Shown: positions 1 to 30,003 of the stretch, piece by piece | How the letters are laid out: the number at the start of each line of letters is the position of its first letter | Position numbering within the stretch: position 1 is the stretch's first letter | Virus record (IMG/VR): IMGVR_UViG_3300045988_119600 | Strand: one strand, 5' to 3' | DNA length: 30,429 nt | Source: a virus | Program-made: the position numbers and the translations under genes | Notes under the pieces: model-generated | What the model saw: the letters and a program-made list of their open reading frames with translations, nothing else | Told to the model about the DNA's origin: nothing | The model's database searches: none

Positions 1-125
1 TATAAACGAGGGCATTTATGCCCGAAGTCAATAATACCCCTATAAACGAGGGCATTTATGCCCGAAGTCAATAATACCCTTATCAACGAGGATACGTAGT
101 ATCCGAGTCAAAAGTCAATTGACTC
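1..125. repeat. Two perfect 40-bp direct repeats (1-40, 41-80) plus a degenerate third copy (81-125), each with an internal short hairpin (gggcat..atgccc / gatac..gtatc, compensatory)
   Basis: Read directly: tataaacgagggcatttatgcccgaagtcaataataccc x2, then tatcaacgag-gatacgtagtatc-cgagtca. Flanks are conserved; the hairpin sequence differs but the pairing is kept. Confidence 0.8.
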
Positions 126-359
126 TTGTAAGAATGGATTTTCTTCTATTGATTCAGGTCTATCATTGTCAAATGCTACTTTTACTGGTTTTGTATTACT
201 TGGAATAACAAAATAAAGAATATCATCTCTCATATATAATTCAGGTTTTATCATATTTGTTTTATCCATCTTATCAAACTATTCTTGCGTTCCTCTTACA
301 AATCTTATTATTGAAGGATTGCCTTTCCCGCCTCTTATATCTGTATAACTATAACTCAT
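108..359 (-). CDS. Hypothetical protein, 83 aa, with one in-frame TAG at 279-281
   Basis: Minus-strand ATG at 359-357 is preceded by AGGAG 6 nt upstream. The frame is open to TGA at 110-108 apart from one TAG, and the translation looks protein-like (…ILYFVIPSNTKPVKVAFDNDRPESIEENPFLQESIDF). It is absent from the ORF track because of the TAG. Confidence 0.35.
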
Positions 360-385
360 ATTTTACTCCTTTTACTCTCAAAAAA

Positions 386-445
386 TACCCCGGTATATAT
401 TTATAAAACGAAGGGCGTAGCCCGGAGTTTTATAAATATATACCC
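386..445. repeat. Long imperfect palindrome (~18-bp AT-rich stem) enclosing a fourth copy of the acga(a/g)GGGC..GCCC hairpin element
   Basis: ggtatatatttataaaacgaa-gggcgtagccc-ggagttttataaatatatacc. The outer arms are reverse complements, and the core resembles the repeats at 1-125. Confidence 0.6.
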
Positions 446-489
446 TCTATTTTAAAAACTATTACTATTACTATTTATATGGTTTCTAA

Positions 490-570
490 AAAACGACCAA
501 AATGTAGAAAATTTTGACCATTTATCAGAAAATTTTGACCACTCCGTCAGAAAATTTTGACCATTTTTAT
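490..570. repeat. Iteron array 1: three to four copies of (c/t)AGAAAATTTTGACCA(t/c)
   Basis: gtagaaaattttgaccat / cagaaaattttgaccac / cagaaaattttgaccat, plus the related aaaacgaccaaaatg. Same family as the array at 1258-1400. Confidence 0.75.
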
Positions 571-1190
571 TCTAACGCGTTCTTTACCCACTAAAACTCT
601 AAATAACTTTTATTATCTTCAGTTTTAATTCTATAATCTAATAATCCTAATCTTTTTAAAATATCAATTGTATCATCTACAATAATATTATTAGATGTTG
701 TGGTAGTGGCAATACCAATAAATTCTTTTATCTATTTAATAGTAGCAATAAATGGCTAAAAACCATTGGCGTAATATCTATTAAACAAATAAACATAAAT
801 ACTCAAACTATTTTTCTATAAAACATTTATTAATTTAGATAAAGTATTATATTCAATTAAATTAGCTTCTGTAGCATCTAATATAGTCAAATAATAATAA
901 CCATCATCTTGTAATTGAATTAAACCTTTATCTTCTAAATATTTGAAATATTTCGCAATAGTTTTTCTTGACATAACTTTTTCAGTTGTGCCATCTGACA
1001 ATGTTCTAACAAAGTCTTTTTCTATGGCCGTCCATTTAACTAATGACTTATTAATTCGACGACCTTCACTATCCATAGTAATTCTCTCTGAATGACACTA
1101 CAACCAAGCATATAATAAATCACAATAATCTTTTTCTCGTGTAATAGTCGGAACAGAGGGAATCTATCGAGAATTTTTCTTTATCTCCAT
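567..1190 (-). CDS. Winged-helix DNA-binding protein (regulator or initiator-like). The conservative core is 816-1076 from the ORF track. It probably extends N-terminally to the ATG at 1190, which has a strong GGAGG RBS, and C-terminally through the TAG at 816-818 to TAA at 569-567, assuming TAG is sense
   Basis: The core 86 aa carry a wHTH-like segment (SRKTIAKYFKYLEDKGLI). In frame upstream, M-E-I-K-K-N-S-R-[TAG]-I-P… starts at the 1190 ATG with GAGGAGG 6 nt before it. In frame downstream of the TAG at 816 there are 83 codons without TAA or TGA in AT-rich DNA, reading …IVDDTIDILKRLGLLDYRIKTEDNKSYLEF[TAG]WVKNALE*. Across the longest reading there are six in-frame TAGs. Confidence 0.5.
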
Positions 1191-1257
1191 AACACACCTC
1201 CTCTCACTATTATTTAAAAATTATTTATAATCTATTATTTGTTCCTGACCTAAAAAA

Positions 1258-1400
1258 TACAACCAAAAATATAGAAATTTTTGACCATTTATCTACCATT
1301 TTTTAACCAAAAATATAGAAATTTTTGACCATTTTTATAGAAATTTTTGACCAACATATAGAAAATTTTGACCATTTTCATTTGAAATGACCATTTTTGG
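1258..1400. repeat. Iteron array 2: four to five copies of ATAGAAA(T/A)TTTTGACCA(T/A) in the divergent intergenic region between the wHTH gene (-) and the first + strand gene
   Basis: aaaaatatagaaatttttgaccattt x2, tatagaaatttttgaccaac, atatagaaaattttgaccatttt, gaaatgaccatttttgg. Confidence 0.75.
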
Positions 1401-1543
1401 TAAAAAGACGCGGTTTTCCCGTCTAATGTTCCTTCTATCCTAAGCATAGCGATCTCTAATACCTACACATAGATGTCTAAAATTTTAACACAATTTTTTA
1501 ACATTTAATTACATTTAACATTTTTGTCCAATCGCTTATTCTT

Positions 1544-1575
1544 TATTGATTTTTATTAAATTTTAATATATAATA
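1544..1575 (+). promoter_or_regulatory. Sigma70-like promoter (TTGATT-17-TATAAT) upstream of the first + strand gene
   Basis: ttgatt-tttattaaattttaata-tataat, followed by an ataaaataaagaaaaact leader and the ATG at 1616. Confidence 0.45.
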
Positions 1576-1615
1576 TAAATATAAAATAAAGAAAAACTAT
1601 TAAAGGTGATAAAAA

Positions 1616-1813
1616 ATGCTTGCTAAACTTATTGATAATCAAGGTCAAACTCATATCCTTAATACGACTCATATTCATTCAATTTCCGTAAAGAATTCTG
1701 GGTCGGATAAACTTGTGATGATTTTTTGGGATAATGAAGCGAAAACCGCGTATTATGTAAGACCCACTGAATATAGCACTTTTATCAATTCTATTTTTAA
1801 GGAGGATAAGTAA
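1616..1813 (+). CDS. Hypothetical protein (65 aa)
   Basis: ORF track; RBS aaaggtga 8 nt before the ATG; TAA stop. Confidence 0.55.
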   Translation: MLAKLIDNQGQTHILNTTHIHSISVKNSGSDKLVMIFWDNEAKTAYYVRPTEYSTFINSIFKEDK

Positions 1814-1814
1814 T

Positions 1815-2153
1815 ATGTCTGTTGATTTTGGTTCTAAGCTCGTATGTGGTTATAAAGTCCCCAAGAACCTTCTTGAAAACTATGATAATATGGCTGAGGC
1901 TATCGAACAACTTACCGAAGAAGGTTATTGGCATCGCGCAAGCGATTATGATAACGACGAGAATCCTATCTTCGGCTATCTTCTCGGTGAGTCTTCCGCA
2001 GGTGAAGCCGTCCGCATTGACAATATCTTCATCGCTCCGCAGGAGTATTATCGCCTTAATAACACGATGAAAGAAGCTTACGCAAAGTTTCTTAAAATCC
2101 CCATCGAAAGCCTTGATGATCCCGAGATTTTTCTAATCTCCACAATTTCTTAA
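1815..2153 (+). CDS. Hypothetical protein (112 aa)
   Basis: RBS taaggagg; tightly packed after the upstream stop. The overlapping ORF 1822-2070 was rejected. Confidence 0.65.
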   Translation: MSVDFGSKLVCGYKVPKNLLENYDNMAEAIEQLTEEGYWHRASDYDNDENPIFGYLLGESSAGEAVRIDNIFIAPQEYYRLNNTMKEAYAKFLKIPIESLDDPEIFLISTIS

Positions 2154-2169
2154 AGAAAGGAAAATAAAT

Positions 2170-2424
2170 ATGAAACAATGCCCCGTTTATTATGAAGCAC
2201 GTTATTGGGACGACTCTGATAAAATGGATAGATTTACGTGCGGTTTTATCTTCGCGGAAACTCTCACTGAGGCTGGTCGTTGGGCAGAAGAGTATTTCGA
2301 CGATCTTATTACTGTCGCATTTACCCCTCTTGACGATGGCCCTTTGCGCGTCAACCGCGATCTTGCTAACAAGATTCTAAAATTTGACAGCGAAGATGAA
2401 CCCTATTCTGCTAAAACACTATGA
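2170..2424 (+). CDS. Hypothetical protein (84 aa)
   Basis: RBS aaagaaagga. Its TGA stop overlaps the next start (ATGATGA). Confidence 0.6.
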   Translation: MKQCPVYYEARYWDDSDKMDRFTCGFIFAETLTEAGRWAEEYFDDLITVAFTPLDDGPLRVNRDLANKILKFDSEDEPYSAKTL

Positions 2425-2870
2425 TGACTTTTTATTGTAATAACTGCGGTTATTACCGGCCAACAACCGGATTATGTCAAATCACAGGCAATACAATTGA
2501 TCCAAATCATGCGATCTGCGATAATTTTCTTTGCGGTGAATATTACACTTGTAAAGTATGTCATACTCCAATTTTCCATAAGCAAATGATCATCGACGAT
2601 CAAGGCAACACTTATTGTAATAAATGTTGGGCAAAACTTAACACATGCGCTAATTGTGAACAAAATGTGAACTGCGCATTTAATGCTTCTCCCGACACGC
2701 CGAAAATGATCCAAAAGCGAGAAGTCGTTGGAAATATGCAAACCGTTATGAATGTCCGTAATCCCGACATTGTCCGAGACACATGCCAAAATGGTTGTTC
2801 TTGTTTCAGCGAAGAAAATGGTTGTATGAGAGATTTCAATTGTTGCGATAACCTCAAACCTATTCTTTAA
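2421..2870 (+). CDS. Cysteine-rich protein with multiple CxxC zinc-ribbon motifs (149 aa, about 20 Cys)
   Basis: CNNCGYY…C..C…CKVCH…CNKCW…CANCEQNVNC…CQNGCSC…CC. The antisense ORFs 2472-2789 and 2612-2857 were rejected. Confidence 0.7.
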   Translation: MMTFYCNNCGYYRPTTGLCQITGNTIDPNHAICDNFLCGEYYTCKVCHTPIFHKQMIIDDQGNTYCNKCWAKLNTCANCEQNVNCAFNASPDTPKMIQKREVVGNMQTVMNVRNPDIVRDTCQNGCSCFSEENGCMRDFNCCDNLKPIL

Positions 2871-2884
2871 AGGAGTTTTTAAAT

Positions 2885-3484
2885 ATGTTTATCTTCTTCT
2901 TGAAAACGCTGGTGGGCGGATTTGTTCTACCGACCTTAATTATTTTTCTGATTTTCGCCATTCATTCTGCTTATTGTAGCTATGGCTATTACAGCACTCT
3001 TTCCGATCCTAAGGCCAAGCGCTTCCGCAATTGGTCTCACCGCGACCGCGTTAACATTCCCCGTCAAATTATTCCCGCCTTTTGGATCGGCGTTTGTCTT
3101 TATCTTGCCGTGGGTATGTTTGGTGGAGTTATAATGTCTTCTGTTAATAAGGACTATTCTAAGTATGATTATACGATTGCGGAAGCCCAAGAGCTAACAA
3201 GTATGGATAATGATGGCAATATCTATACTTACCGCGCATTCGAAGGGGAAAGTGTTTATTACACTTATCTTACACTCAGTGCTGATGGCATTACAAGCAC
3301 TGAAAATTATCCCGTGAATAGCACAGTAGTTATTTACTCTAATCAGGTTCCGCACATTGAAAAGCGTCTCCCTCGTTATGGCGATTGGAGAGAGTGGTTC
3401 TTTGTCTGCACTAAATCAACGCGAGCTTATCTTTATATTCCAGAAGGAACAGACGTGGCAAAAGACTATATTGTGGAGAAGTAA
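2885..3484 (+). CDS. Membrane protein (N-terminal TM helix, 199 aa)
   Basis: RBS aaaggag. Hydrophobic N-terminus FVLPTLIIFLIFAI and an internal TM IPAFWIGVCLYLAVGMFGGVIM. Confidence 0.65.
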   Translation: MFIFFLKTLVGGFVLPTLIIFLIFAIHSAYCSYGYYSTLSDPKAKRFRNWSHRDRVNIPRQIIPAFWIGVCLYLAVGMFGGVIMSSVNKDYSKYDYTIAEAQELTSMDNDGNIYTYRAFEGESVYYTYLTLSADGITSTENYPVNSTVVIYSNQVPHIEKRLPRYGDWREWFFVCTKSTRAYLYIPEGTDVAKDYIVEK

Positions 3485-3485
3485 A

Positions 3486-3740
3486 ATGAACAAAGGTGAT
3501 TTGATTTATTTAAAAATGTCTAACGGCGACAGCGTTTTTCTTAATGCGAATGAAATTATCGCGGTCCTTATTTCCCATACTACTAAGGATAATTCAGACA
3601 ATGACAGTATTTCTACTGAAACTTTTGAAACAAAACTTGATTTTTGTATGAGTAATAAAACTCTTTATTCATATGAGTTCGAGGACAATGATCCTGATGG
3701 TATGGCAGTTATGAGACAACTTAGAAATTTCTTATACTAA
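3486..3740 (+). CDS. Hypothetical protein (84 aa). ORF 3357-3740 in the track is an artefactual N-terminal extension that overlaps the upstream gene
   Basis: ATG at 3486 comes directly after the upstream TAA, with ggagaag as RBS. Confidence 0.55.
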   Translation: MNKGDLIYLKMSNGDSVFLNANEIIAVLISHTTKDNSDNDSISTETFETKLDFCMSNKTLYSYEFEDNDPDGMAVMRQLRNFLY

Positions 3741-3752
3741 GGAGGCATTTAG

Positions 3753-3998
3753 ATGACTGTAATTTTACACAACTTCCGCGGTATTAAGTATCTTATCAAT
3801 ACTAATAATATCAATAGCGTTAGCTTTTCTGCGGTCGATTCTAAGCAGTATGCGGATGAGATTGCGGAAGCAGGCGGTAGTCCACTCACGCGTATCTACA
3901 TTGATTGGTATGGCGGTTCTTCTACCGGCCTTCTCGCAACTTCCGAAGTGGCTGATGAATTTCTCAATCTTTTTGAAAACGCGATTGAAATCTTTTAA
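3753..3998 (+). CDS. Hypothetical protein (81 aa)
   Basis: RBS ctaaggagg. Confidence 0.6.
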   Translation: MTVILHNFRGIKYLINTNNINSVSFSAVDSKQYADEIAEAGGSPLTRIYIDWYGGSSTGLLATSEVADEFLNLFENAIEIF

Positions 3999-4056
3999 TT
4001 TCTAAATATATTATAACAAAAATTTTGGGTAAAATCAATTAATGGAGGAATAATAT

Positions 4057-4272
4057 ATGAGTCGTATCCCTGTTTTATTCATCTATAATGAGTCTCGCGA
4101 TGAAATTTATTGCGCAACAAATCTCGGTGAATCTGATGCGCTTGAAATTACTATGTCTGCTATCGAGAAGAACGTCGAAGAGCAATTCCACTGTCATAAG
4201 TTCGATGCTCAGATCTATAATAAAGCACTTGAACATATGATTGTCTATTACGAATATGTTCCCGTTCTCTGA
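4057..4272 (+). CDS. Hypothetical protein (71 aa)
   Basis: RBS aatggagga; TGA stop followed by the terminator at 4279-4309. Confidence 0.6.
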   Translation: MSRIPVLFIYNESRDEIYCATNLGESDALEITMSAIEKNVEEQFHCHKFDAQIYNKALEHMIVYYEYVPVL

Positions 4273-4278
4273 TCTTTA

Positions 4279-4309
4279 AAGGATTTGCGTAAACCGCAAA
4301 TCCTTTTTT
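4279..4309 (+). terminator. Rho-independent terminator
   Basis: ggatttgcg-taaac-cgcaaatcc followed by a tttttt run. Confidence 0.8.
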
Positions 4310-4369
4310 GATTTTTTATAAAAAATAATATATAATATATATATAAAGTAAAGAAAGGAAATAAAAATT
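4308..4369 (+). promoter_or_regulatory. Conserved early promoter and leader (TTGATT-17-TATAAT, then atatataaagtaaagaaagga) driving gene 4370
   Basis: Copy of the motif that recurs at least 15 times across the window. Confidence 0.6.
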
Positions 4370-4690
4370 ATGACTACTTCTAATTCTAAGATTAAAACTC
4401 ATTCCATTGGTATTCTTTGTGATACGGCCGGAGACCATAATTTCTATTTCCTGAATGCGTCCGAAGCTGATATGCAGGAAATGTTTATGGAGTATTGTCG
4501 AGATATGGTCGATGATAGCCTTATGGAGCGTCAGTTCGAGACAATTCAGAAAGATTCTGATTATGATTGGTATCTTTACCACGGTGAGATGACCGGCGAG
4601 TGGACAAGAAGATTTTCTTCTTACCTCGATATGATGAACGAGGTCGCAAATGATGTTTTCATTGATTTCGTTGATGCGGTTGAAATGTAA
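4370..4690 (+). CDS. Hypothetical acidic protein (106 aa)
   Basis: ORF track; motif-supplied RBS aagaaagga. Confidence 0.65.
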   Translation: MTTSNSKIKTHSIGILCDTAGDHNFYFLNASEADMQEMFMEYCRDMVDDSLMERQFETIQKDSDYDWYLYHGEMTGEWTRRFSSYLDMMNEVANDVFIDFVDAVEM

Positions 4691-4701
4691 GGAGAATAAT
4701 T

Positions 4702-4983
4702 ATGAAAGAAATTTCTTGTTATAAAATTGAAGATGAGATGACCAGTAAGTCTTGGACCTTCGCCAATATTTCAGAAGCAGAAGCGGAAGAGTTATATCTC
4801 GCTTTCCTTGAAGGTGCGATCGAAGAAGACATTATGGAAACGCAACGAATTGAATACTTCGATCTCCCTCTTCCTAAGCCCGATTGGTGGAGAACAGAAG
4901 TGGATTATCAGAAAGAGGTTGATAAACTTCTTCTTATGGATGGCGAGTTCTATATGTATAAATTTAATGCTTACGTATTTTAA
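4702..4983 (+). CDS. Hypothetical protein (93 aa)
   Basis: RBS taaggaga. ORF 4808-5014 in another frame was rejected. Confidence 0.6.
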   Translation: MKEISCYKIEDEMTSKSWTFANISEAEAEELYLAFLEGAIEEDIMETQRIEYFDLPLPKPDWWRTEVDYQKEVDKLLLMDGEFYMYKFNAYVF

Positions 4984-4994
4984 GGAGGATATAA

Positions 4995-5729
4995 ATGATT
5001 CCTGGACTTTATGAAATCTTTAATACGCGCTGGGGCGGTCAGACGGTCTGGGTATCCTCTGATTGGCATTTTGGCGATTCAGACCTGCGGATTGGCCATC
5101 CCGACCGCATTTCTGATGATGACCTCGTAAAACTTTTGAATAGCAAAGCCGGTCGGAAAGACACGCTTATTTGCCTCGGTGATGTAGGTAAGATCTCCTA
5201 TGTGCGGAAACTGCGCGCCGGTTATAAGGTTCTTATCAAGGGCAACCATGATGCGGGATCTGAAAACTATAAGCGCAAAATCGTCAAGAAGAAGTTCTCT
5301 ATGGATTACTACCAAAAGGACGAAGCGCTTATGGAAATGAAGCGTCTTTATCCTGATTGCAAGTATTCTATTGATTCAGGATTTGATTTCCACACTCCCT
5401 TTGAATATTGGGAGATTACCGCGGACAACGGTCTTTTTGACGAAGTATATGATGGCGCGCTCATCATTGGTGAGAAACTTATGCTTTCTCACGAACCGAT
5501 TAAGCAGGACTGGGCTCTCGATCTTCACGGCCACGACCACAATCATAAAGAGACGGACATCTATCACAAGAATGTTTGTGTAGATGTGTTTGGCCCCGCT
5601 CCTTTGAATCTAAACCAGTTCATGAAAAATGGTCCAACCGCAAAGATCGGGAGCGTCCACAGAAAAACAATCGACACCGCGACCAAGAGAAAACAGAAGC
5701 GAGGAGGTAAAAAGATATGGGAGAAATGA
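4995..5729 (+). CDS. Calcineurin-like metallophosphoesterase (phosphatase or phosphodiesterase)
   Basis: Ordered MPP motifs SDWHFGD, LGDVG, GNHD and HGHDH. RBS taaggagg. Confidence 0.8.
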   Translation: MIPGLYEIFNTRWGGQTVWVSSDWHFGDSDLRIGHPDRISDDDLVKLLNSKAGRKDTLICLGDVGKISYVRKLRAGYKVLIKGNHDAGSENYKRKIVKKKFSMDYYQKDEALMEMKRLYPDCKYSIDSGFDFHTPFEYWEITADNGLFDEVYDGALIIGEKLMLSHEPIKQDWALDLHGHDHNHKETDIYHKNVCVDVFGPAPLNLNQFMKNGPTAKIGSVHRKTIDTATKRKQKRGGKKIWEK

Positions 5730-5887
5730 TTATTATGCTATTTATTATATTAGTATTTTTCGGCTTTATGTATATGGATTTGCTGGATGATAATACTATG
5801 TCTCTTAATGAGAAGTATTATTACTGCGGTATGGGCATGTTGCTTTGCCTGTTTGCCGGTTTCATTCAGTCAGTCTTTTATGCTTAA
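5726..5887 (+). CDS. Small hydrophobic peptide (53 aa). The ATG overlaps the upstream TGA (ATGA)
   Basis: MIIMLFIILVFFGFMYM… Below the ORF-track length cut-off. Confidence 0.35.
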   Translation: MIIMLFIILVFFGFMYMDLLDDNTMSLNEKYYYCGMGMLLCLFAGFIQSVFYA

Positions 5888-5966
5888 AGCAATCATTCTT
5901 TGTTTTTGCGCTCTTGGCATTTTATCCGTTTTGTTCGATGACTTAGATTAAGGAGGAGGAGGATAT

Positions 5967-6173
5967 ATGGTAGAGTTTATTGTAGAAATTATTCTTGGAT
6001 TAATTATAGCAAGGCTTGCCTTATGTATCTTCAAGCTTGCTGACGGCGCAAGTGCTCCCGAAGATACGTTTTTAATTGACACTTGTGTCATTACTGGAAG
6101 CTTATTACTTATAATTTCTACACTCCCAATCATATCAGGAGTATATGGAGTAATTCAATATTTTATTCATTAA
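5967..6173 (+). CDS. Small membrane protein (68 aa, two TM segments)
   Basis: RBS ttaaggaggaggagg. Confidence 0.55.
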   Translation: MVEFIVEIILGLIIARLALCIFKLADGASAPEDTFLIDTCVITGSLLLIISTLPIISGVYGVIQYFIH

Positions 6174-6186
6174 GGAGAAAATAGTT

Positions 6187-6591
6187 ATGCTTTATGTAGT
6201 TTTTATTCTTGCGTTTGCGGGCTTTATTGCTCTCGCAATTTGGGGTTTTGATAAATATTCTGCTCTTGGTTGTCTTACTTCGATTGTCGGCATCGCTGGC
6301 ACCGTTATCTTTGGAATCGTAATGGTATTTTCTACTATTGTGATTATCAATGAAAATGTATACAGTGATGCTCTTTATGAGAAATATACAACTCGTCGAG
6401 AAGCTCTTGAATGGCGACTCGAACAGGATTATACCGATAATGATAACAACCTTGGCGCAACTGAACTTTATAAAGAAATTCAGGAATATAATGAAGACCT
6501 TGCGGGCGCAAAATCTAATCGCGCGAACCCTTGGTTGAAGATCTATGCCGGAGAATATGTTGATCGGCTTGAATTTATTGAGCTAAAATAA
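6187..6591 (+). CDS. Membrane protein (two N-terminal TM segments, 134 aa)
   Basis: RBS taaggaga. Confidence 0.6.
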   Translation: MLYVVFILAFAGFIALAIWGFDKYSALGCLTSIVGIAGTVIFGIVMVFSTIVIINENVYSDALYEKYTTRREALEWRLEQDYTDNDNNLGATELYKEIQEYNEDLAGAKSNRANPWLKIYAGEYVDRLEFIELK

Positions 6592-6602
6592 GGAGAATAA
6601 AA

Positions 6603-7208
6603 ATGATTATTTGTAAACATTGCGGTCAGCCCATTTCTGATAAGTCAAAGATTTGTCCGTTTTGTGGAGGCAATGTAAAGGTTCCTTTCTATGATAAGAC
6701 ATGGTTCCATATTCTCCTTGTGCTTATCATCTTTGCGGGGATTGATTATGTCATTAGGAATCCCGATCCCGAACCTACTGTATATCGCACTCCAATTGTA
6801 GAGAACGCGGAAGCCTCGTCTCAGAGTTCGGATGATCCCATCGAAGAGATCGATGAACAGGAAACCGCGCCTAAGAGTGAAGAAGATAAATATTCTAATG
6901 AAAATATTAGTGATATGATCGCTCTTGTGGATAATTACCCTATGCAAGCAGAAGATTATGAGGGTCAATATATCCGCGTTTCAGGCTATGTGCGGAATGT
7001 GGATAGTGATGGTAAATATTTTACCATTGCCGAAGATGATGATAGTTTTGTTATTACCAATACAATTCAGTAGAAGATGAAGAAAACTTCTGATGTATAT
7101 GAGTTTATTAAAAATACTACTATTGGAACTTATATCACTGTTGAAGGTAAAATTACTGATGTTGGTGAAGTTATGTATTATCTCGGCGAAGCAGATAATG
7201 CGTATTAA
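6603..7208 (+). CDS. Zinc-ribbon + TM + C-terminal beta-rich domain protein. Reads through an in-frame TAG at 7071-7073 and ends at TAA 7206-7208
   Basis: The N-terminus reads CKHCGQ…CPFCGG followed by a TM helix. After the TAG there are 44 further in-frame codons with no stop (KMKKTSDVYEFIKNTTIGTYITVEGKITDVGEVMYYLGEADNAY*). The terminator comes only after 7208. Confidence 0.55.
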
Positions 7209-7213
7209 ACAAT

Positions 7214-7251
7214 AAGGACTTATGTTAATTCATAAGTCCTTATTTTATTTT
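7214..7251 (+). terminator. Rho-independent terminator, immediately followed by the conserved promoter and leader
   Basis: aaggacttatg-ttaatt-cataagtcctt followed by attttattttt. Confidence 0.8.
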
Positions 7252-7305
7252 TATAAAAAAATATAATATAATATATATATAAAGTTAAGAAAGGAATTGA
7301 AAATT

Positions 7306-7581
7306 ATGTATGTAGAGCTTTGGGATCTAATTGGTAGAAAGTATACTGATCCAGAAGATGATGAATACGCAATGCTCGTTTCTAAGGATGGCATTCATAT
7401 CGCCAACGCGGTTGAGATTCTTTTCTCTAAGGCTAAGGGTGAGGGTCGAATCCGCGAGTATAACATTGAAATCCCCTGCGTTTTTGATACAATCGGCATC
7501 GAAATGGTTTACGTGCTAATTGTCTCTTGGATTAATGCAGATGGCTCTCTTGGAACTTATTATACGGAGGTATGTCATTAA
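7306..7581 (+). CDS. Hypothetical protein. The track's 7297 start is a TTG; the ATG at 7306 sits at the conserved spacing from the leader
   Basis: Leader …aagaaaggaattgaaaattATG. Confidence 0.6.
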   Translation: MYVELWDLIGRKYTDPEDDEYAMLVSKDGIHIANAVEILFSKAKGEGRIREYNIEIPCVFDTIGIEMVYVLIVSWINADGSLGTYYTEVCH

Positions 7582-7829
7582 TGACTGTTTATGCTCTTTG
7601 TTATCATTATGATAGTTTTGGCGGTGATGATACCGCGGTGCTTAGCCTTTATTCTACTGAGGAAAAGGCTTTTGAAGCAGGACGAAAGAAAGAAAAGGAA
7701 GCGCAAGAGCGTTGGGAAAAAAATAAATCTATCTCATATTGCAAAAAGCCTTCGTTTGATGGATTTTTCGTTCACGGCTACGGCGACTACTATGTAAAGA
7801 TTATGGAAGTTGATAAGGAGACTATCTAA
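7581..7829 (+). CDS. Hypothetical protein, with TAATG stop/start overlap. The alternative start at 7572 is only 2 nt from its RBS
   Basis: ggaggt lies 11 nt upstream of 7581. Confidence 0.5.
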   Translation: MTVYALCYHYDSFGGDDTAVLSLYSTEEKAFEAGRKKEKEAQERWEKNKSISYCKKPSFDGFFVHGYGDYYVKIMEVDKETI

Positions 7830-8146
7830 TGGTTGTAATGATTTATGCTTATGAAAGCGTCTATTGCGGACTCCACGGTATTAATACTGGTGGTGTCTTT
7901 GAGGTTGATAGTGTCGCAGAAGCTGATGATATTGGCAAAGGAATGGCTTATGACGTAATCGACGGTTATAGTCATGCCTTTGAGGATTACGACTTAGAAG
8001 AGGTAGAGGAAGGCATTGAATGGGAAGTTTGGCCCGTCCGCGATAACACTGGGCTTTCCGTTAGTGAGCTTGACTGCGAATTTGCGAACCTCGGTAGAAG
8101 TCTCTTTATTGATGAGTATTGTTGTGTAGATATCCACAATACTTAA
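7829..8146 (+). CDS. Hypothetical acidic protein (105 aa), with TAATG overlap
   Basis: ORF track. Confidence 0.6.
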   Translation: MVVMIYAYESVYCGLHGINTGGVFEVDSVAEADDIGKGMAYDVIDGYSHAFEDYDLEEVEEGIEWEVWPVRDNTGLSVSELDCEFANLGRSLFIDEYCCVDIHNT

Positions 8147-14013: not shown

Positions 14014-15618
14014 ATGGCTAATTTATTTGAGCTCCTTTCCAAAGAAGATTGCGAAAAGATTGAAGAGTATATTCGTAATTTTGCGGGCCTCGGCGGAGAT
14101 AGTTCCGATATGAAGGCATCTCTCGACTACATTCTCCGCTTTTGGGCTTATAATAAGCAGAATCTTTATAAGATGTTGGGAGATAATCTTATCATTTCTC
14201 GTAAGGTAAGTTATTCTCGTTCTTATGAAGAGATGAGTGATGATTATTATGATTATTTCGGTAGAAATGGTGATGGTTTCGAATTCCGAAATACCTTTAA
14301 TAATAAGGTAAGAGATCTTTATCTCAGGACAACCATCTCTAATACTCAGTATCTTAATTTGGCAAGTCTTTTGGATGTTGAACCTTTAATGTCTAACATC
14401 TATGATGGTGAATCTTTTAAATTCACTTATAATAATAAAACTCTTATGATTAATAAGGGCATGAAGCTTAGTAAGATGCTTGGTAAGCTGAGTGATATTT
14501 TGGAGATTGACCGCGATGTTTATGAAAAGTTCCGTATCGCTCATTCTCAGTTCCTCAATCAGAAAAATATTTCTGGTGAACTTTGTCTTTCTGTTCATCC
14601 TCTTGATTATATCACTATGAGTGATAATAATTGCGGTTGGGATTCTTGTATGAGATGGCAGAATGGTGGTGGCGAATATCGTCAGGGAACCGTTGAGATG
14701 ATGAATTCTCCCATTATCCTTGAAGCTTATCTTAAATCTGATAAGGACATGGAAATTTGTTATAAGGTTGGTAAGCCTGTGATGTGGAATAGCAAGCGCT
14801 GGCGTGAACTTTTCATCGTAGATGAAAGTCTTATCCTTGGTATCAAGGGTTATCCTTATTGTAATGATAACCTTGAAAGTATTTGTCTCGCTTGGATCAA
14901 GAAGCTCGCTGAACAGAATCTTGGCTTTGGTCCTTATACCAAGTATTTAAATAAGATTCAGAATTACAGTAATAATATTATTGGTGAGTTTGATAGAAAT
15001 ATTTATTTCAATCTTGATACCAATTTCATGTATAACGATATCTATTCAGAGCATAATGCTTACGTTTCCACTAAGATTCCTACGGACGAAAACATTGATC
15101 TTAACTACTCGGGTGAATCTGAGTGTATGTGTTGTGGAGAGCTTCTTGATGATTCTCTCTTCGATGATAGAGAGAATAACGCGGAAATGACTATCTGTCC
15201 AAGTTGCTCGGGTGCAGTAAAGTGCGATAAGTGTGGCGATATTGTTTATGTCGATGACACTTATAATGTCGATGGAAAAACTTACTGCGCTTATTGTTAT
15301 GATGAAAGCACAGAAGTTTGTCCTTGTTGTGAAGTTCGTAAAGATTATGATGATATGAAGCAAATCCGTCTTCGATTCCAAAAGAAGCCAGTTGGATTCT
15401 ATGCGGATATTTGTTGGGATTGTTGTGGAGATAAAAAAGTAAAAACCTTCTTCACTGGTGAAATTGAAGAAGAAAGAGACGGTTGGCGCTCTAATTATTA
15501 TGTCGATGGAGAAACTCTCACGGAAAAGGGCAGAGACCTCTTTGACATTAATGAAGAGGAATTTATTTCTTGGGTGAATGGCACTAACCCAAATCAAAGA
15601 CCTTCTTTGATTTTTTAA
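14014..15618 (+). CDS. Large protein, paralog A. Unknown N-terminal domain with an LC(L/F)SVHPLD core, plus a C-terminal multi-CxxC zinc-ribbon array
   Basis: Shares ELCLSVHPLDYITMSDNNCGWDSC…GEYRQG…WNSKRWRELF with the 18105 product. C-terminus reads CMCCGELL…CPSCSG…CDKCGD…CAYCYDE…CPCCEV…CWDCCGDKK. Confidence 0.8.
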   Translation: MANLFELLSKEDCEKIEEYIRNFAGLGGDSSDMKASLDYILRFWAYNKQNLYKMLGDNLIISRKVSYSRSYEEMSDDYYDYFGRNGDGFEFRNTFNNKVRDLYLRTTISNTQYLNLASLLDVEPLMSNIYDGESFKFTYNNKTLMINKGMKLSKMLGKLSDILEIDRDVYEKFRIAHSQFLNQKNISGELCLSVHPLDYITMSDNNCGWDSCMRWQNGGGEYRQGTVEMMNSPIILEAYLKSDKDMEICYKVGKPVMWNSKRWRELFIVDESLILGIKGYPYCNDNLESICLAWIKKLAEQNLGFGPYTKYLNKIQNYSNNIIGEFDRNIYFNLDTNFMYNDIYSEHNAYVSTKIPTDENIDLNYSGESECMCCGELLDDSLFDDRENNAEMTICPSCSGAVKCDKCGDIVYVDDTYNVDGKTYCAYCYDESTEVCPCCEVRKDYDDMKQIRLRFQKKPVGFYADICWDCCGDKKVKTFFTGEIEEERDGWRSNYYVDGETLTEKGRDLFDINEEEFISWVNGTNPNQRPSLIF

Positions 15619-17148: not shown

Positions 17149-18255
17149 GTGAGAGGTTTTAAAACTAATGAACTTTGGTTATTTGAATATCTGGTTCGCT
17201 CGACGCAAGATGAGTTAAGGGAATATGTTGCCGATGTATTGAAATCTAAATATTCTGAAGTAGTTATTACTAAAGAGTATGTTTGTGCGGTTGGCGATAT
17301 TCCGATTGCCTTAGTGGCTCATCTTGATACCGTGTTTGAGAAACCGGTCAAAGATTTATATTATGACACAAGAAAAAATGTGCTTTGGTCACCTGAAGGT
17401 CTTGGTGCAGATGATAGAGCAGGAGTATATGCGATTCTTCATATTTTGAGGAATACATCTTTGCGCCCTTCTATTATTTTTACCACTGATGAAGAAATTG
17501 GTGGATTAGGCGCCGAAGCATTAGTATTACAATATTTTGAGTGTCCATTTCCTGATTTGAAATATATTATTCAGTTGGATAGACAAGGCACAAATGATTG
17601 TGTATTTTACGACCTTTACAATCCTAAATTCATTGATTACATTGAATCTTTTGGATTTGTAGAGGATTTTGGCACGTTTAGTGATATTAGTGTTTTATGT
17701 CCTGAATGGAAAATTTGTGGTGTAAATCTTTCAGTTGGATACAAGAATGAACATAGTCATGTTGAAACATTAAATGCGGGCGCTCTTTTTGATACGATTA
17801 ATAAGGTAATCCGCATGCTCCAAGAGAAAGATATCCCTAATTTTGAGTATTATCGTAATTATCATAATATTTGGTTCGATAATATTTGTAAGAATTTTCC
17901 AACTGATGGCGATGGATTCTACGTTCATTGTAGAGGATGCGGTCAGCTATTTAGTGAGTATGAAACATTTCCAGTAAAGGGATTAGATGGACATACATGT
18001 TTTTATTGTCCTGATTGTATTCCCAGTAATGTTGAATGGTGTGCGGAGTGTGAAGAGGCATTTGAAATTGACCCTGCGAACCCACACAGCGAGTATTGTA
18101 AAGATTGTATTGGAGGATTAGTCAAATGTCATATGACTTCGACATCGAAAGCATTAGAGAACAGTTCAACAAAGTCATCAGTTACTCCCAAGGAATCAGT
18201 AATCCAAAAACAGAAGAACTATTCGAAAGATTCCTCGAAGCCAAAAAAGACTTAA
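17149..18255 (+). CDS. Zinc exopeptidase-like (M42/M20 family) domain fused to C-terminal zinc ribbons. GTG start
   Basis: Motifs AHLDTVFE, GADDRAGV and TTDEEIGGLGA, in the order expected for the M42/M20 zinc-aminopeptidase fold. C-terminus reads CRGCGQ…CFYCPDC…CAECEE…CKDC. RBS aggaga 7 nt before the GTG. Confidence 0.65.
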   Translation: MRGFKTNELWLFEYLVRSTQDELREYVADVLKSKYSEVVITKEYVCAVGDIPIALVAHLDTVFEKPVKDLYYDTRKNVLWSPEGLGADDRAGVYAILHILRNTSLRPSIIFTTDEEIGGLGAEALVLQYFECPFPDLKYIIQLDRQGTNDCVFYDLYNPKFIDYIESFGFVEDFGTFSDISVLCPEWKICGVNLSVGYKNEHSHVETLNAGALFDTINKVIRMLQEKDIPNFEYYRNYHNIWFDNICKNFPTDGDGFYVHCRGCGQLFSEYETFPVKGLDGHTCFYCPDCIPSNVEWCAECEEAFEIDPANPHSEYCKDCIGGLVKCHMTSTSKALENSSTKSSVTPKESVIQKQKNYSKDSSKPKKT

Positions 18256-26351: not shown

Positions 26352-27131
26352 ATGATAGGAATTTATAAAATTACTAATAAAATAAATAATCATTGTTATA
26401 TTGGATAGTCAAGAAATATAGCAGAACGTTGGGAAAATCATATATATAGCTCCCAAGATGAAAAGAGTAAAAGCTATAATTATCCCTTATATCAAAGTTT
26501 CAGAAAATATGGTGTTTCTAATTTTATATTTGAAGTGTTAGAAGAATGTGAAATTGATAATCTAAATAGTAGAGAAACTTATTGGATTGATTATTATAAA
26601 CCAGAGTATAATTAGACAATAGGTGGAGATTATCGCGTAATTTATCAAAAATTAAATTATTAGGAAGTCCAAGATATTCAAAATATTTTAATTAATGATA
26701 AGTTAGGTGTAGTTAATCATTCGGAATTAGCTAAAAAATATAAAGTTAGTAAAGATACTATTAGAGATATAAATGTTGGAAGAACTTGGTTTAATGAAAA
26801 ATTAAATTATCCTTTACATTATTCTCGTTTTGATAAAAATAAACCAGAAGAAGAGAAAAAACTTTTAAAAAAAGTTTGTCCTATATGTGGTGGAGAGTGG
26901 AGCGGAAAAGGTCAAAAATGTTAGAAATGTTCTGCTAAAGAACATCGAAAAATTAAAAGACCTTCTCGTGATAAATTAAAAAAATTGATTCGTAATAAAA
27001 GTTTTACTTCTATCGCGAATATATATCATGTAAGTGATAATTCCATTAGAAAATGGTGTATTTCTTATAATTTACCTAATACAAAAAAAATTATAAATTT
27101 ATACACTGATGATGAATGGAAAAACATATAA
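26352..27131 (+). mobile_element. GIY-YIG homing endonuclease gene (259 codons) with four in-frame TAG codons, inserted in the tRNA cluster
   Basis: MIGIYKITNKINNHCYIG[TAG]SRNIAERWENH matches the GIY-(10)-YIG…R…E signature, with the TAG falling where YIGQS/YIGSS is expected. HTH-like NUMOD segments follow, and a CPICGG…KC[TAG]KC zinc finger has its TAG inside the CxxC. RBS gtaaggaga. Confidence 0.8.
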
Positions 27132-27212
27132 ATATTAGGCGTAATGCCGTAAGCCCTCTTTTAAGAGGTATCACAGTAATAAAGACACACACAGCAATCA
27201 TTTTCTATTGAA

Positions 27213-27284
27213 AGTATTTTAACTCATTGGTAGAGTATTTGTCTGTCAAACAAATTGTAGTTGGTTCAATTCCAACAAATATTT
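27213..27284 (+). tRNA. tRNA-Asp (GUC)
   Basis: Acceptor agtattt/aaatatt, anticodon stem tttgt/acaaa with loop cuGUCaa, T-arm gttgg-ttcaatt-ccaac. Confidence 0.7.
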
Positions 27285-27329
27285 CATTTGTGTCTTGTAA
27301 ATTAAAATAATCCAAAAGGAGATATCTAA

Positions 27330-27533
27330 ATGAAGTTTAAGTTTAAGCCCGGCGACAAGGTTTATTCTAAGAAGTATGGTAAGGGCTTTTGCCATCAGGT
27401 TGATGAACAGGATAAAGATTTTACTTATGATTTCCATTTTAAGGATGGCACAATCATTTGGATGTCCCGATATGATGGTGAGCGTTATGTAAAGTTCCGC
27501 AGACCGAAGAACGCGGAACCCGCAAACGCATAA
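27330..27533 (+). CDS. Small basic hypothetical protein (67 aa)
   Basis: RBS aaaaggagatatctaaATG. Confidence 0.55.
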   Translation: MKFKFKPGDKVYSKKYGKGFCHQVDEQDKDFTYDFHFKDGTIIWMSRYDGERYVKFRRPKNAEPANA

Positions 27534-27747
27534 TTTATCTTTCCTTTCTTTTTGAATAATTAAGGCGCTAACAGCAAACTTTAAAACATCAATGTACAAA
27601 ATACATATGCTTAAGATTGTTTATAGCGTCTTGTTCTATTTATATTGTTGATGTAGTACGATAAATAAAATATCACATTCTTTTAGTCAATTTTAAAGGA
27701 AGAATGACTACGTGGAGAATCGGGAATCGTAGCAATATAAATATTAT

Positions 27748-27823
27748 GGGCGGATAGCTCAGTTGGTAGAGCGTAGGATTGAAGATCCTAGCGTCGGCAG
27801 TTCGATTCTGTCTCCGCCCACCA
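27748..27823 (+). tRNA. tRNA-Phe (GAA), CCA encoded
   Basis: gggcgga…gctc-agttggtag-agc…anticodon stem tagga/tccta with loop uuGAAga…T-loop ttcgatt…tccgccc-a-cca. Confidence 0.85.
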
Positions 27824-28232
27824 AAAGACCAACAAATGAGGAACCTCTTTGCTGCTCGAGGCTGTTGGGATGCCTGTTAGAAAGGCTACTCTTCTATATA
27901 TTTAAATATATAGAAACAAAAGACTATACAATAGAGAGAGTCTTTTACATCTAGTTCATTTTCTTACTTATCTTTCTGTTTGATTTCCCCTTTCGTTTGA
28001 TATATAGATTGTTGTTTTCTCTCACTTCCATAGAAATGAATTGTTTTTCTACTCTCTATTTTGTTTCATAAAAATAAATAAAGAAGGAGGATTGTCTGAT
28101 ATGTTTAAAGATGTTGATGATTTGATCTTTGGCGATGAGCGCGAGTTTTGTCCTAGCGAACGATAAGTGCGGTCGCCTATCTAATGCTACCATAGGCTGG
28201 TTCCAAGTCCAGAAAAGCAGAGGAGGTAGGAT

Positions 28233-28469
28233 ATGAAAAATATTTTAAGCTATAAAAATCCTTGTTTTAGCGGTCAAGAAATTCTTGATTGGGCCAATTA
28301 TCAAGTGAATAATAAAACTTCTCATTATAAGCAAGGACTGAGAGTTTTAAATTTATTTGGTAATATTAAACCTGATAGAAAATATTATATTTTTAGTAAT
28401 TATCGCACTTGGCGTAGTTATTGTGGATATAGTATTAAGCCTAAGCTAATTATATATAGGTGTAAATAA
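28233..28469 (+). CDS. Hypothetical protein (78 aa)
   Basis: RBS agaggaggtaggatATG. Confidence 0.5.
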   Translation: MKNILSYKNPCFSGQEILDWANYQVNNKTSHYKQGLRVLNLFGNIKPDRKYYIFSNYRTWRSYCGYSIKPKLIIYRCK

Positions 28470-28562
28470 ATAGAATAATTGAGGCGTTGGGTGAGGGTGT
28501 GGTATGGTTTAAACGAGGATATCATCTGTTTAAGCAGTAAATTATTCTATTTATATATTATG

Positions 28563-28652
28563 AAGGAGTGGCAGAGCTGGTTGAATGCGGCACCCTGCTA
28601 AGGTGTTGGCCTCATTTGGGGCCCGGAGGTTCGAATCCTCTCTCCTTCGCCA
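28563..28652 (+). tRNA. tRNA-Ser (GCU), long variable arm, CCA encoded
   Basis: Acceptor gaaggag/ctccttc, anticodon stem gcacc/ggtgt with loop cuGCUaa, T-arm ggagg-ttcgaat-cctct. Confidence 0.85.
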
Positions 28653-28679
28653 TTAAATTTTAAATTAAGAGGATTAAGT

Positions 28680-29819
28680 ATGAATATTGTAAACGCTGGT
28701 TCTCGCTATCAGATTTATGGCGAGGACGTTAAGACTTATAAGCGACTTCCGCTTATGTCTTTTGAAGTCTGCTTTAGTAAGATGGCAGGTTTTTATCTTT
28801 CTTCTCGTCCAGATCTTGCGGTCAATGAGGAAAAAATTTATGGTAATCACGAAGTTAAAGTCAATAAGGTGCTTAATTCTTTTAAGTATTCAGACCGTAA
28901 TCTTGGTGTTATTTTAAGTGGTCAGAAGGGTATTGGTAAGTCATTGTTTGCTCGTATTCTTTCTCATCACGCTATTGAAAACGGATATCCTGTCCTTTTG
29001 GCTAATACTTATATGCCTGGTATCGCAGATTTTATTTCCAGTATCGAGCAAGAAGTCGTAATTATTTTTGATGAGTTTGAAAAGAATTTCTCTAATAACT
29101 CTGACGACCATGCGGGCCCCTCTCCGCAGGAAGAAATGCTTTCTCTTTTTGATGGTCTTGATAATGGTAAGAAGCTTTTTGTCATTACTTGTAATGAAGT
29201 TGATCGACTTAGCACTTATCTTTTGAATAGACCTGGTCGTTTCCATTATCATTTTAAGATTACTTTCCCAACTGAGGAAGAGATCGTTGAGTATTTGACT
29301 GATAAGGTTAAGCCTAAATACGCAGATGGTATTAAGGATATTGTGAATTTTTCTCGCACTGTTAATATGACTTATGATTATCTTCGAGCGATTGCTTTTG
29401 AACTTAATCAGGGTTATGGTGTGGCAGAAACTCTTGAAGACCTTAATATCTCTCAGACTTCCAATGTTCGTTTCAATATCACTATTACTACGGTAAATGG
29501 TGATGTATATAATACCTATGGTGCTTCAGTTAATTTGTTTAACAATCCTAATACCAATCATCAAAGATGGTATGATGGTTATGCCTCAGATAGTAAGACT
29601 ATTCGTTATGCCTTGACTCCTGATTCGATTAAGATTGAAAAGGGTATGATTACAGCTGATCCGAAAAAGGTTGAAGTTTACATTGATCCTGATGACTTTT
29701 GGACGATTACTGATGCTGAAAAGCGTAAGGAAGCTATTGAAAAGGCTAAAAATGAGCGCGTAATTAAGTCTGTTGTTTTAACTAAGGTCGCAAACACTAT
29801 TGAACAGTATCTTTATTAA
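28680..29819 (+). CDS. AAA-family ATPase (379 aa)
   Basis: Walker A GQKGIGKS, Walker B VIIFDEFE, then ITCN and LNRPGRFHYHF (the classic AAA second region of homology). RBS aagaggattaagtATG. Confidence 0.85.
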   Translation: MNIVNAGSRYQIYGEDVKTYKRLPLMSFEVCFSKMAGFYLSSRPDLAVNEEKIYGNHEVKVNKVLNSFKYSDRNLGVILSGQKGIGKSLFARILSHHAIENGYPVLLANTYMPGIADFISSIEQEVVIIFDEFEKNFSNNSDDHAGPSPQEEMLSLFDGLDNGKKLFVITCNEVDRLSTYLLNRPGRFHYHFKITFPTEEEIVEYLTDKVKPKYADGIKDIVNFSRTVNMTYDYLRAIAFELNQGYGVAETLEDLNISQTSNVRFNITITTVNGDVYNTYGASVNLFNNPNTNHQRWYDGYASDSKTIRYALTPDSIKIEKGMITADPKKVEVYIDPDDFWTITDAEKRKEAIEKAKNERVIKSVVLTKVANTIEQYLY

Positions 29820-29825
29820 CGCGAC

Positions 29826-29866
29826 GGCCGATGTAAAGTGAATATACTTTACATCGGCCCCTTTTG
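29826..29866 (+). terminator. Rho-independent terminator
   Basis: ggccgatgtaaagt-gaatat-actttacatcggcc followed by ccttttg. Confidence 0.8.
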
Positions 29867-29914
29867 ACTTTATAAAAAAAATATTATATAATAAATATAT
29901 GAAAATAAGAAAAT
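29866..29914 (+). promoter_or_regulatory. Conserved promoter and leader (TTGACT-17-TATAAT-aaatatatgaaaataagaaaatg) driving the tRNA pair
   Basis: Motif copy directly upstream of a tRNA. Confidence 0.55.
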
Positions 29915-30002
29915 GCTTTTGTGATGGAATTGGTATACATGCTAGACTAAGAATCTAGTGGGCGTAAAGTTCATGTGAGTTCGAGTCTCACCAAAAGCAC
30001 CA
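29915..30002 (+). tRNA. Class II (long variable arm) tRNA, Leu-type, anticodon read as AAG. CCA encoded
   Basis: Perfect acceptor gcttttg/caaaagc, anticodon stem ctaga/tctag with loop cuAAGaa, T-arm gtgag-ttcgagt-ctcac. Confidence 0.6.
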
Positions 30003-30003
30003 T

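What the first reader, a model, noticed from the sequence alone, without database searches (positions are those of the whole stretch)
490..1400. Iteron arrays (AGAAAWTTTTGACCA, about 8 copies) on both sides of a minus-strand winged-helix protein gene, at a divergent transcription junction
Directly repeated 15-17-bp sites in two clusters, one downstream of the wHTH gene and one in the intergenic region between it and the first + strand gene. This arrangement is typical of initiator/iteron replication origins or autoregulated repressor operators. It lies next to the hairpin repeats at the window start, so the whole 1-1600 region looks like a replication, regulatory or packaging control region.
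Basis: partly seen in the sequence, partly recalled or inferred. Interest (0 to 1): 0.6.

Follow-up and report, generated by a model that had tools for sequence, protein, structure and literature searches.

The report
Phage initiator gene flanked by iterons
In a roughly 195-kb gut phage that reads TAG as glutamine, a gene for a two-winged-helix DNA-binding protein is bracketed by evenly spaced copies of its probable binding site, which matches the replication-control module of phage P1 and iteron plasmids and is exchanged as a cassette between related phages.

The parts
567..1190 (-). Gene for a 207-aa tandem winged-helix protein (Rep-like). It has six in-frame TAG codons read as Gln (codons 9, 31, 125, 146, 153, 200) and a TAA stop at 567-569.
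1197..1201 (-). Shine-Dalgarno sequence GGAGG, 6 nt before the ATG at 1188-1190.
   Evidence: Read directly from the sequence.
1273..1374 (+). Upstream iteron array. Four exact copies at 1273-1287, 1317-1331, 1339-1353 and 1360-1374, with a degenerate lattice copy at 1295-1309.
   Evidence: Spacing is 44/22/21 bp. The same array is present in relatives L007 and L009.
1251..1265 (+). Degenerate lattice copy on the gene-proximal edge of the upstream array; it keeps the ACCA end.
   Evidence: Read. It lies 22 bp before the 1273 copy.
1379..1393 (+). Half-site (TGACCA) on the distal edge of the upstream array.
   Evidence: Read. Its neighbourhood (the TGGTCATTTCA stretch) is conserved in L007 and L009.
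506..563 (+). Downstream iteron array. Three exact copies at 506-520, 527-541 and 549-563, in the same orientation as the upstream array. It ends 3 nt from the stop codon.
   Evidence: The position right after the stop codon is conserved in relatives.
485..499 (+). Half-site (CGACCA) 21 bp beyond the last downstream iteron, at the edge of the exchangeable cassette.
   Evidence: Read. Similarity to L023 resumes at about 491.
1268..1295 (-). Candidate sigma-70-type promoter for the Rep-like gene (TAGATA-16-TATATT). It encloses the iteron at 1273-1287.
   Evidence: Consensus scan, 9 of 12 matches. This is a weak pattern match only. It is analogous to PrepA lying inside the P1 incC iterons.
392..444 (-). 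Long hairpin (25-nt arms) followed by a U-run on the minus strand. Probably the terminator of the Rep-like transcript. It is part of the backbone, not the cassette.
   Evidence: I1. RNA fold -31.9 kcal/mol, z = -5.2. It lies in the backbone segment (window 30-452) that is 84% identical in L023.
1196..1254 (.). AT-rich stretch (GC about 20-23%) between the upstream array and the gene start. One candidate unwinding region; it also holds the 5' leader.
   Evidence: Composition profile. The function is inferred.
1531..1620 (.). The most AT-rich stretch of the region (GC 8-12%). It holds the best + strand promoter match (TTGATT-17-TATAAT, 1546-1574). It is conserved backbone and a second candidate unwinding region.
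   Evidence: Conserved in L007 and L023.
1469..1490 (-). Single 'orphan' copy of a different iteron type (TGTTAAAATTTTAGACATCTAT), identical to the iteron of the L023/L014/L015 homologues.
   Evidence: (none expected by chance). It has decayed in L007.

Best explanation
This is a self-contained Rep-iteron module of a roughly 195-kb TAG-recoded phage. The 207-aa protein has two winged-helix domains. It most likely binds each roughly 20-bp iteron as a monomer, one domain per half-site. Copies 21-22 bp apart (two helical turns) place the bound proteins on one face of the DNA. The upstream array of 4 exact and 3 degenerate sites would have two roles. It would be the initiator-loading part of an origin, opening a neighbouring AT-rich stretch. 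Because the gene's own candidate promoter lies inside it, it would also be an autorepression operator. The downstream array, 3 exact copies starting 3 nt after the stop codon, would act like P1 incA or F incC, titrating the initiator and pairing with the origin array to limit initiation. What is shown: the repeats and their phasing, the fold, the family-wide conservation of two flanking arrays, the co-variation of protein and site, and cassette exchange. What is inferred: binding itself, origin firing, autorepression and handcuffing.
Confidence: 0.55

Rival explanations
1. The protein is an autoregulated transcription factor with no role in replication. It binds the arrays to control its own promoter, and perhaps loops the two arrays together. 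It would act as a phase-specific regulator at the head of the early-gene block, made only after the switch to TAG=Gln.
For: The first domain gives generic MarR/Crp/TrmB-type wHTH hits in many family members. The candidate promoter overlaps an iteron. The gene sits divergently at the start of a long block of small, TAG-free genes, both here and in a 48%-identical relative. Exchange of a protein-plus-site cassette is also typical of phage immunity regions (from general knowledge of lambdoid phages). The heavy TAG use points to late timing (Borges et al., bioRxiv 10.1101/2021.08.26.457843).
Against: Dimeric wHTH repressors normally bind inverted repeats. Here all sites are direct repeats phased at 21-22 bp. 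The + strand promoter region (about 1541-1615) is conserved between phages carrying different cassettes, and it lies about 150 bp from the nearest iteron. Type-specific control of the early operon by occlusion is therefore unlikely. A conserved array abutting the stop codon has no obvious role in simple repression. The only two-domain structural matches are initiators.
Confidence: 0.25
2. The protein is a centromere-binding or DNA-pairing protein of a partition or genome-organising system, comparable to ParR, TubR, AspA or ScpB, and the arrays act as a centromere.
For: The best PHROG hit is a family labelled ScpB (E 6e-7). Tandem winged-helix proteins such as ScpB appear among the fold hits. 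AspA gives weak profile hits. Known centromeres such as R1 parC and pBtoxis tubC are arrays of direct repeats near the operon promoter (from general knowledge).
Against: There is no NTPase partner (ParA, ParM or TubZ). The two downstream genes encode 83-aa and 123-aa proteins with no family match, and they belong to the backbone, not the cassette. The ScpB-type matches have low TM scores or cover a single domain. The PADLOC JetB hit is insignificant.
Confidence: 0.08
3. The region is a packaging-recognition (pac-like) site, bound by a small-terminase-like DNA-binding protein.
For: Many related contigs end within a few kb of the gene.
Against: The protein has no similarity to terminase small subunits. 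No terminase gene lies nearby. The contig ends fall at variable distances, and several break right at the repeat array (L006, L022, L029, L037). That pattern fits assembly breaks at repeats or at a polymorphic cassette better than physical genome ends.
Confidence: 0.03

Closest known systems
Phage P1 plasmid replicon (oriR/incC - repA - incA)
   Same: The initiator gene is bracketed by two arrays of direct repeats on the gene strand. The upstream array has about 5 copies at 21-22 bp with the gene's promoter inside it. The downstream array abuts the stop codon. The element is a phage. There is weak profile similarity over the second winged-helix domain.
   Different: P1 RepA is 286 aa and a Pfam Rep_3 member; this protein is 207 aa with no Rep_3 hit. 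P1 oriR has a DnaA box and Dam sites; none are found here. P1 incA has 9 copies; this locus has 3-4. No par operon is seen nearby. This gene needs TAG suppression.
F plasmid RepE / ori2 (incB-repE-incC) and R6K pi / gamma ori
   Same: A tandem winged-helix initiator that binds a 19-22 bp iteron as a monomer. These are the best two-domain structural matches. From general knowledge, F also has iterons on both sides of repE.
Vibrio cholerae RctB (chromosome 2 initiator)
   Different: RctB is a much larger four-domain protein. A second site type is present here only as one orphan copy.
Rep_3 theta replicons of lactic acid bacteria (pCI305/pWV02 type; from general knowledge)
   Same: An AT-rich region and about 3.5 copies of a 22-bp iteron lie immediately upstream of the rep gene, in low-GC Gram-positive hosts.
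   Different: Those replicons have no downstream array, and their proteins are clear Rep_3 members. This comparison rests on memory and was not tested here.
Lambda O and the phage 'replisome organizer' initiators
   Same: Phage-encoded origin-binding proteins with an N-terminal winged helix. They give weak single-domain fold and profile hits.
   Different: Their iterons lie inside the gene, and they carry a C-terminal helicase-loader-recruiting domain. Here the sites flank the gene, and the protein consists of two winged-helix domains only.

Membership tests
Iteron-binding plasmid initiators (RepE / pi / RepA; Pfam Rep_3, PF01051) | Two tandem winged-helix domains (WH1-WH2) in one chain | tested here: met
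Iteron-binding plasmid initiators (RepE / pi / RepA; Pfam Rep_3, PF01051) | Sequence match to the family model | tested here: not met
   Rep_3 is not among the Pfam matches for the protein at E up to 1. It is not among the 25 families that most of the 83 relatives match (53 matched in all; only the first 25 were shown). No Rep chain appears in the PDB profile search at E up to 10. hhalign against the P1 RepA family gives only 52% probability, E 1.5e-4, over WH2 alone.
Iteron-binding plasmid initiators (RepE / pi / RepA; Pfam Rep_3, PF01051) | Several directly repeated 17-22 bp sites, phased at about 22 bp, next to the gene | tested here: met
   7 exact and 4 degenerate copies with 21-22 bp spacing. 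Conserved in 14 of 18 family loci against 0 of 66 controls.
Iteron-binding plasmid initiators (RepE / pi / RepA; Pfam Rep_3, PF01051) | The protein binds the iterons specifically | not testable with these tools
   Only indirect evidence is available: the repeat sequence co-varies with the protein, and both are exchanged together.
Iteron-binding plasmid initiators (RepE / pi / RepA; Pfam Rep_3, PF01051) | AT-rich unwinding element and host DnaA boxes beside the iterons | tested here: inconclusive
   AT-rich stretches lie at 1196-1254 (GC about 20%) and 1531-1620 (GC 8-12%). The whole cassette is AT-rich, however, and the second stretch is 135 bp from the array. There is no DnaA box within 1.6 kb at up to 1 mismatch.
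Iteron-binding plasmid initiators (RepE / pi / RepA; Pfam Rep_3, PF01051) | The gene plus its iterons suffice for autonomous replication | not testable with these tools
   This needs a replication assay. No relative lies on any plasmid in PLSDB.
P1/F-type layout (origin iterons - rep - control iterons) | A second array of the same iterons downstream of rep, in the same orientation | tested here: met
   506-563 versus 1273-1374, all on the + strand, ending 3 nt after the stop codon. In P1, incA copy 9 abuts the repA stop codon.
P1/F-type layout (origin iterons - rep - control iterons) | The rep promoter is embedded in the upstream iterons (autorepression) | tested here: inconclusive
   There is only a 9-of-12 consensus match at 1295-1268, enclosing the iteron at 1273-1287. 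The region as a whole shows no excess of promoter-like sites over shuffles.
Dimeric wHTH repressors (MarR / Crp / ArsR type) | One wHTH per chain, a dimerisation element, and palindromic operators | tested here: not met
   The protein has two wH domains per chain. All sites are direct repeats. The sequence hits are generic recognition-helix matches below the family cut-offs.
ScpB (label of PHROG 3396) | Tandem wH protein that partners with ScpA kleisin and SMC, without sequence-specific sites | tested here: not met
Partition centromere-binding proteins (ParR / TubR / AspA) | Encoded in an operon with a ParA, ParM or TubZ NTPase | tested here: not met
   The downstream genes encode 83-aa and 123-aa proteins with no family hit.

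The most novel reading that the evidence does not exclude
The module may be a replicon gated by the genetic-code switch, with exchangeable specificities. The initiator mRNA carries TAG at codon 9 and at five more positions, so a standard-code host can make only an 8-residue peptide until the phage's TAG suppression is active. That would tie origin firing or copy control to the code switch. Near-identical phage backbones carry different initiator-plus-iteron cassettes. Each also keeps remnants of the other type: one exact copy in the window, and one exact plus two degenerate copies in L023. This would amount to plasmid-style incompatibility groups among co-circulating large gut phages.
Probability: 0.2. 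Interest if true: 0.7.

Novelty: new member of a known kind. Interest (0 to 1): 0.45.

Why it matters
Replication origins and initiators of large, uncultivated, stop-codon-recoded gut phages are mostly unknown. For clades of this genome size, GC-skew patterns were reported as unclear (bioRxiv 10.1101/2021.08.26.457843). This locus gives a concrete, testable origin candidate. It also defines an unannotated protein family: 231 cluster representatives at 50% identity, with no Pfam family. If the roughly 1-kb cassette replicates on its own, it could seed vectors for the unknown hosts. It would also show that iteron-type copy control, known from plasmids and P1, is widespread in large gut phages. 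The TAG-rich coding of the gene offers a direct test of whether recoding times replication. If the protein is only a regulator, the finding is still a clean example of a co-evolving protein and site cassette, but it would be of ordinary interest.

Tried and rejected
- **Nucleotide search:** blastn of window 1-8000 against GenBank phages found nothing.
- **tblastn:** there was no hit in PLSDB plasmids. There was one unannotated hit, MT835855.1, among phages.
- **AlphaFold-database fold search:** the library was not available.
- **Species-genome scan:** With a narrow alignment it found only 6 MAG contigs assigned to inconsistent taxa, so it gives no host call.
- **15-mer scan of IMG/VR:** it saturated with single chance hits and was uninformative.
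- **Naive ORF calling around relatives:** this produced many spurious antisense ORFs, so I dropped pooled neighbour annotation.
- **Precomputed neighbour annotations:** they show only small ORFans and no replisome genes.
- **Rfam:** only tRNAs were found, and nothing in 1-1600.
- **PADLOC:** no defence-system link.
- **DnaA boxes:** none at the locus.
- **RepE entry look-up:** It is not evidence about the window.
- **Full-genome GC skew:** this could not be computed, because only about 40 kb of the roughly 195-kb genome can be reached.
- **Rejected readings:** an immunity repressor of the early operon, because the early promoter is not part of the exchanged cassette. ScpB, partition and packaging roles are rejected for the reasons given under the rival explanations.

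Full report
**1. The observation.**
The motif AGAAAWTTTTGACCA occurs seven times without mismatch, always on the + strand. Three copies lie at 506, 527 and 549, and four at 1273, 1317, 1339 and 1360. About 0.5 matches are expected even at two mismatches, and none of 100 shuffles reaches seven. With three mismatches allowed, the other 29 kb add only three chance-level matches. Spacing is 21-22 bp, or 44 bp where the intervening copy is degenerate.

Reading the sequence, weaker copies that keep the (G)ACCA end sit at 485, 1251 and 1295, on the same lattice. A TGACCA half-site sits at 1379. That gives about 11 positions: 4 downstream of the gene and 7 upstream.

**2. The gene.**
Between the arrays, on the minus strand, lies an ORF (567-1190) with GGAGG 6 nt before the ATG. 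It has six in-frame TAG codons and ends in TAA. The public protein collection holds the identical 207-aa protein with Gln at those positions. It was seen on 48 contigs of up to 197 kb.

Two of the TAG codons fall on Gln residues (Q9 and Q31) that are conserved in at least 90% of the family. TAG-free relatives encode these positions with CAA or CAG. No gene in the window ends in TAG. This gene uses TAG for 6 of its 8 Gln codons, the highest share in the window. TAG=Gln is therefore well supported.

**3. Setting.**
Contigs of 193-197 kb from several samples carry the locus at different positions, so the genome is about 195 kb. The gene heads a three-gene minus-strand island: this gene, an 83-aa gene at 108-359, and a 123-aa gene just left of the window. 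+ strand genes lie on both sides.

A strong hairpin with a U-run (392-444, -31.9 kcal/mol, z -5.2) follows the downstream array. The 40-bp hairpin repeats at 1-80 also look like minus-strand terminators. The + strand genes from 1616 to about 19.9 kb are almost free of TAG. Genes after 20 kb use TAG.

**4. The protein.**
Sequence libraries give only weak, generic winged-helix hits and DUF6945 for the C-terminal half. There is also a PHROG labelled ScpB (E 6e-7).

An exhaustive search finds 231 cluster representatives (50% identity) at E up to 0.001, most of them about 200 aa. With an 83-sequence alignment, AlphaFold2 gives pLDDT 97 and pTM 0.92, with two winged-helix domains.

Among viral models the best matches are uncharacterised gut-phage proteins (TM 0.65-0.73). 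One is annotated as a replication initiator. hhalign against P1 RepA gives 68% probability (E 4.9e-5, 126 columns). Against an alignment of the P1 RepA family, which is Pfam Rep_3, it gives 52% (E 1.5e-4) over the second winged-helix domain.

The fold is therefore that of iteron initiators. Sequence-level membership in Rep_3 is not established.

**5. Conservation and co-variation.**
I examined 18 non-redundant loci encoding relatives (27-100% identity), drawn from IMG/VR, ENA, GenBank and MAG contigs. In 14 of them a 12-mer has at least four same-strand copies split between the 300 bp upstream and the 200 bp downstream of the gene. None of 66 windows shifted within the same loci reaches three.

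The repeat changes with the protein:
- TGGTCAAAA for relatives at or above 63% identity.
- TGTCCAAAA at 50% identity.
- TGTTAAAAATTT at about 35-37% identity.
- Other sequences below that.

The downstream array starts within a few bases of the stop codon in most of these loci.

**6. Cassette exchange.**
Contig L023 (192.8 kb) is 87% identical in DNA to window 1805-4320 and 84% identical to window 30-452. MAFFT extends the similarity to about 1541 and about 491. Between those points it carries a protein only 37% identical, with a different iteron (TGTTAAAATTTTAGACAYCTAT) on both sides. Protein and both arrays therefore move as one unit of about 1 kb.

The window keeps one perfect copy of that foreign 22-mer at 1469-1490. 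In IMG/VR the same 22-mer occurs only at the three loci of that type. L023 in turn keeps one exact and two degenerate window-type copies. The orphan site has decayed in L007, which suggests a remnant of a swap rather than a selected site.

**7. Comparison with P1.**
The annotated P1 record has five incC iterons at 21-22 bp spacing with the repA promoter inside them. Next comes repA, followed by nine incA iterons, the last of which abuts the stop codon. All are on the gene strand. The window locus reproduces this layout, including a candidate promoter that encloses an iteron (a weak match).

**8. What does not fit.**
- There is no DnaA box within 1.6 kb.
- The most AT-rich stretch (1531-1620, GC 8-12%) is 135 bp from the array. 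It belongs to the backbone and to the + strand promoter region.
- GC skew is +0.1 to +0.27 to the right of the locus and about zero to the left. The only negative stretch is the minus-strand island itself. This is compatible with unidirectional replication or with transcription bias, so it is not diagnostic.
- No relative lies on a known plasmid.
- No replisome or partition gene is adjacent, here or in relatives.
- The heavy TAG use means the protein cannot be made under the standard code. That argues against a role in a quiescent plasmid prophage and against very early action.

**9. Verdict.**
The most likely reading (0.55) is a phage Rep-iteron replication-control module of the P1/F type, built on a previously unannotated branch of the tandem winged-helix initiator fold.

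The main rival (0.25) is an autoregulated DNA-binding regulator without a replication function. Three points weaken it: the sites are direct phased repeats, the downstream array is conserved, and the early promoter is not part of the exchanged cassette.

Partition and packaging roles are unlikely. Binding, origin firing and copy control are all inferred and need the experiments listed under next steps.

Noticed in passing
window 1469-1490 (-); L023 2633-2715: Each of two near-identical phage backbones keeps remnants of the other's iteron type. The window has one exact 22-mer of the L023 type. L023 has one exact and two degenerate window-type copies, distal to its own array. The site has decayed in L007, so it is probably a scar of cassette replacement. 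Cross-talk between the types is not excluded.
   Followed up: partly
window 1-120; L002 11090-11170: A 40-bp tandem unit (TATAAACGAGGGCATTTATGCCCGAAGTCAATAATACCCY) occurs twice, followed by a degenerate third copy. Each copy holds a GC-rich hairpin that scores as a minus-strand terminator. The otherwise 99.7%-identical contig L002 has one copy fewer, so copy number varies.
   Followed up: partly
window 567-1190, 19997-23278, 26352-27131 versus the rest: There are two codon-usage classes. Genes with many in-frame TAG codons encode Gln with TAG and CAA and almost never with CAG; the winged-helix gene is also AT-rich. TAG-free genes use CAG freely. No gene ends in TAG.
   Followed up: partly
window 23358-30079: An array of 16 tRNA genes contains none with a CTA (TAG-decoding) anticodon. 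The first gene (23358-23428) passes the Rfam tRNA threshold, but ARAGORN cannot assign its anticodon (odd loop, reported as 'tc'). The suppressor tRNA must lie elsewhere, or it is this unusual gene.
   Followed up: no
window 26352-27131: A GIY-YIG endonuclease gene (Pfam E 3.7e-10) with four TAG codons sits inside the tRNA array. It is probably a homing endonuclease.
   Followed up: no
window 14014-15618 and 18126-19559: Two large Cys-rich proteins are paralogues (30% identity over 151 aa, E 7e-18). They share an SVHPLD motif and C-terminal CxxC clusters. Neither has a Pfam family; the second matches only a PHROG of unknown function.
   Followed up: no
window 20568-21980 and 21962-23278: Two adjacent, overlapping genes encode similar Gly/Ser-rich proteins. 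Both contain '...IRVGQDSLYARVIVAGGGG...' and '...GSGYVYTSSTASNYPSGCLLN...'. They carry 5 and 4 TAG codons and are possibly fibre or surface proteins.
   Followed up: no
L005 12813-13427: One of the otherwise syntenic 194-kb contigs has an extra HNH endonuclease gene (NUMOD4/HNH_3) left of the island. It is absent from L001-L003.
   Followed up: no
L006, L022, L027, L029, L037 (contig ends): Several metagenomic contigs stop at or very near the start of the Rep-like gene, in the region of the upstream array. Many longer contigs end within 2-8 kb of it. This probably reflects assembly breaks at repeats or at a polymorphic cassette rather than physical genome ends.
   Followed up: no
L002 12000-20600 versus window 3000-30000: Composition changes across the island. 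To the left, GC is 40-49% and skew is about zero. To the right, GC is 31-42% and skew is +0.1 to +0.27, although genes on both sides run the same way.
   Followed up: partly
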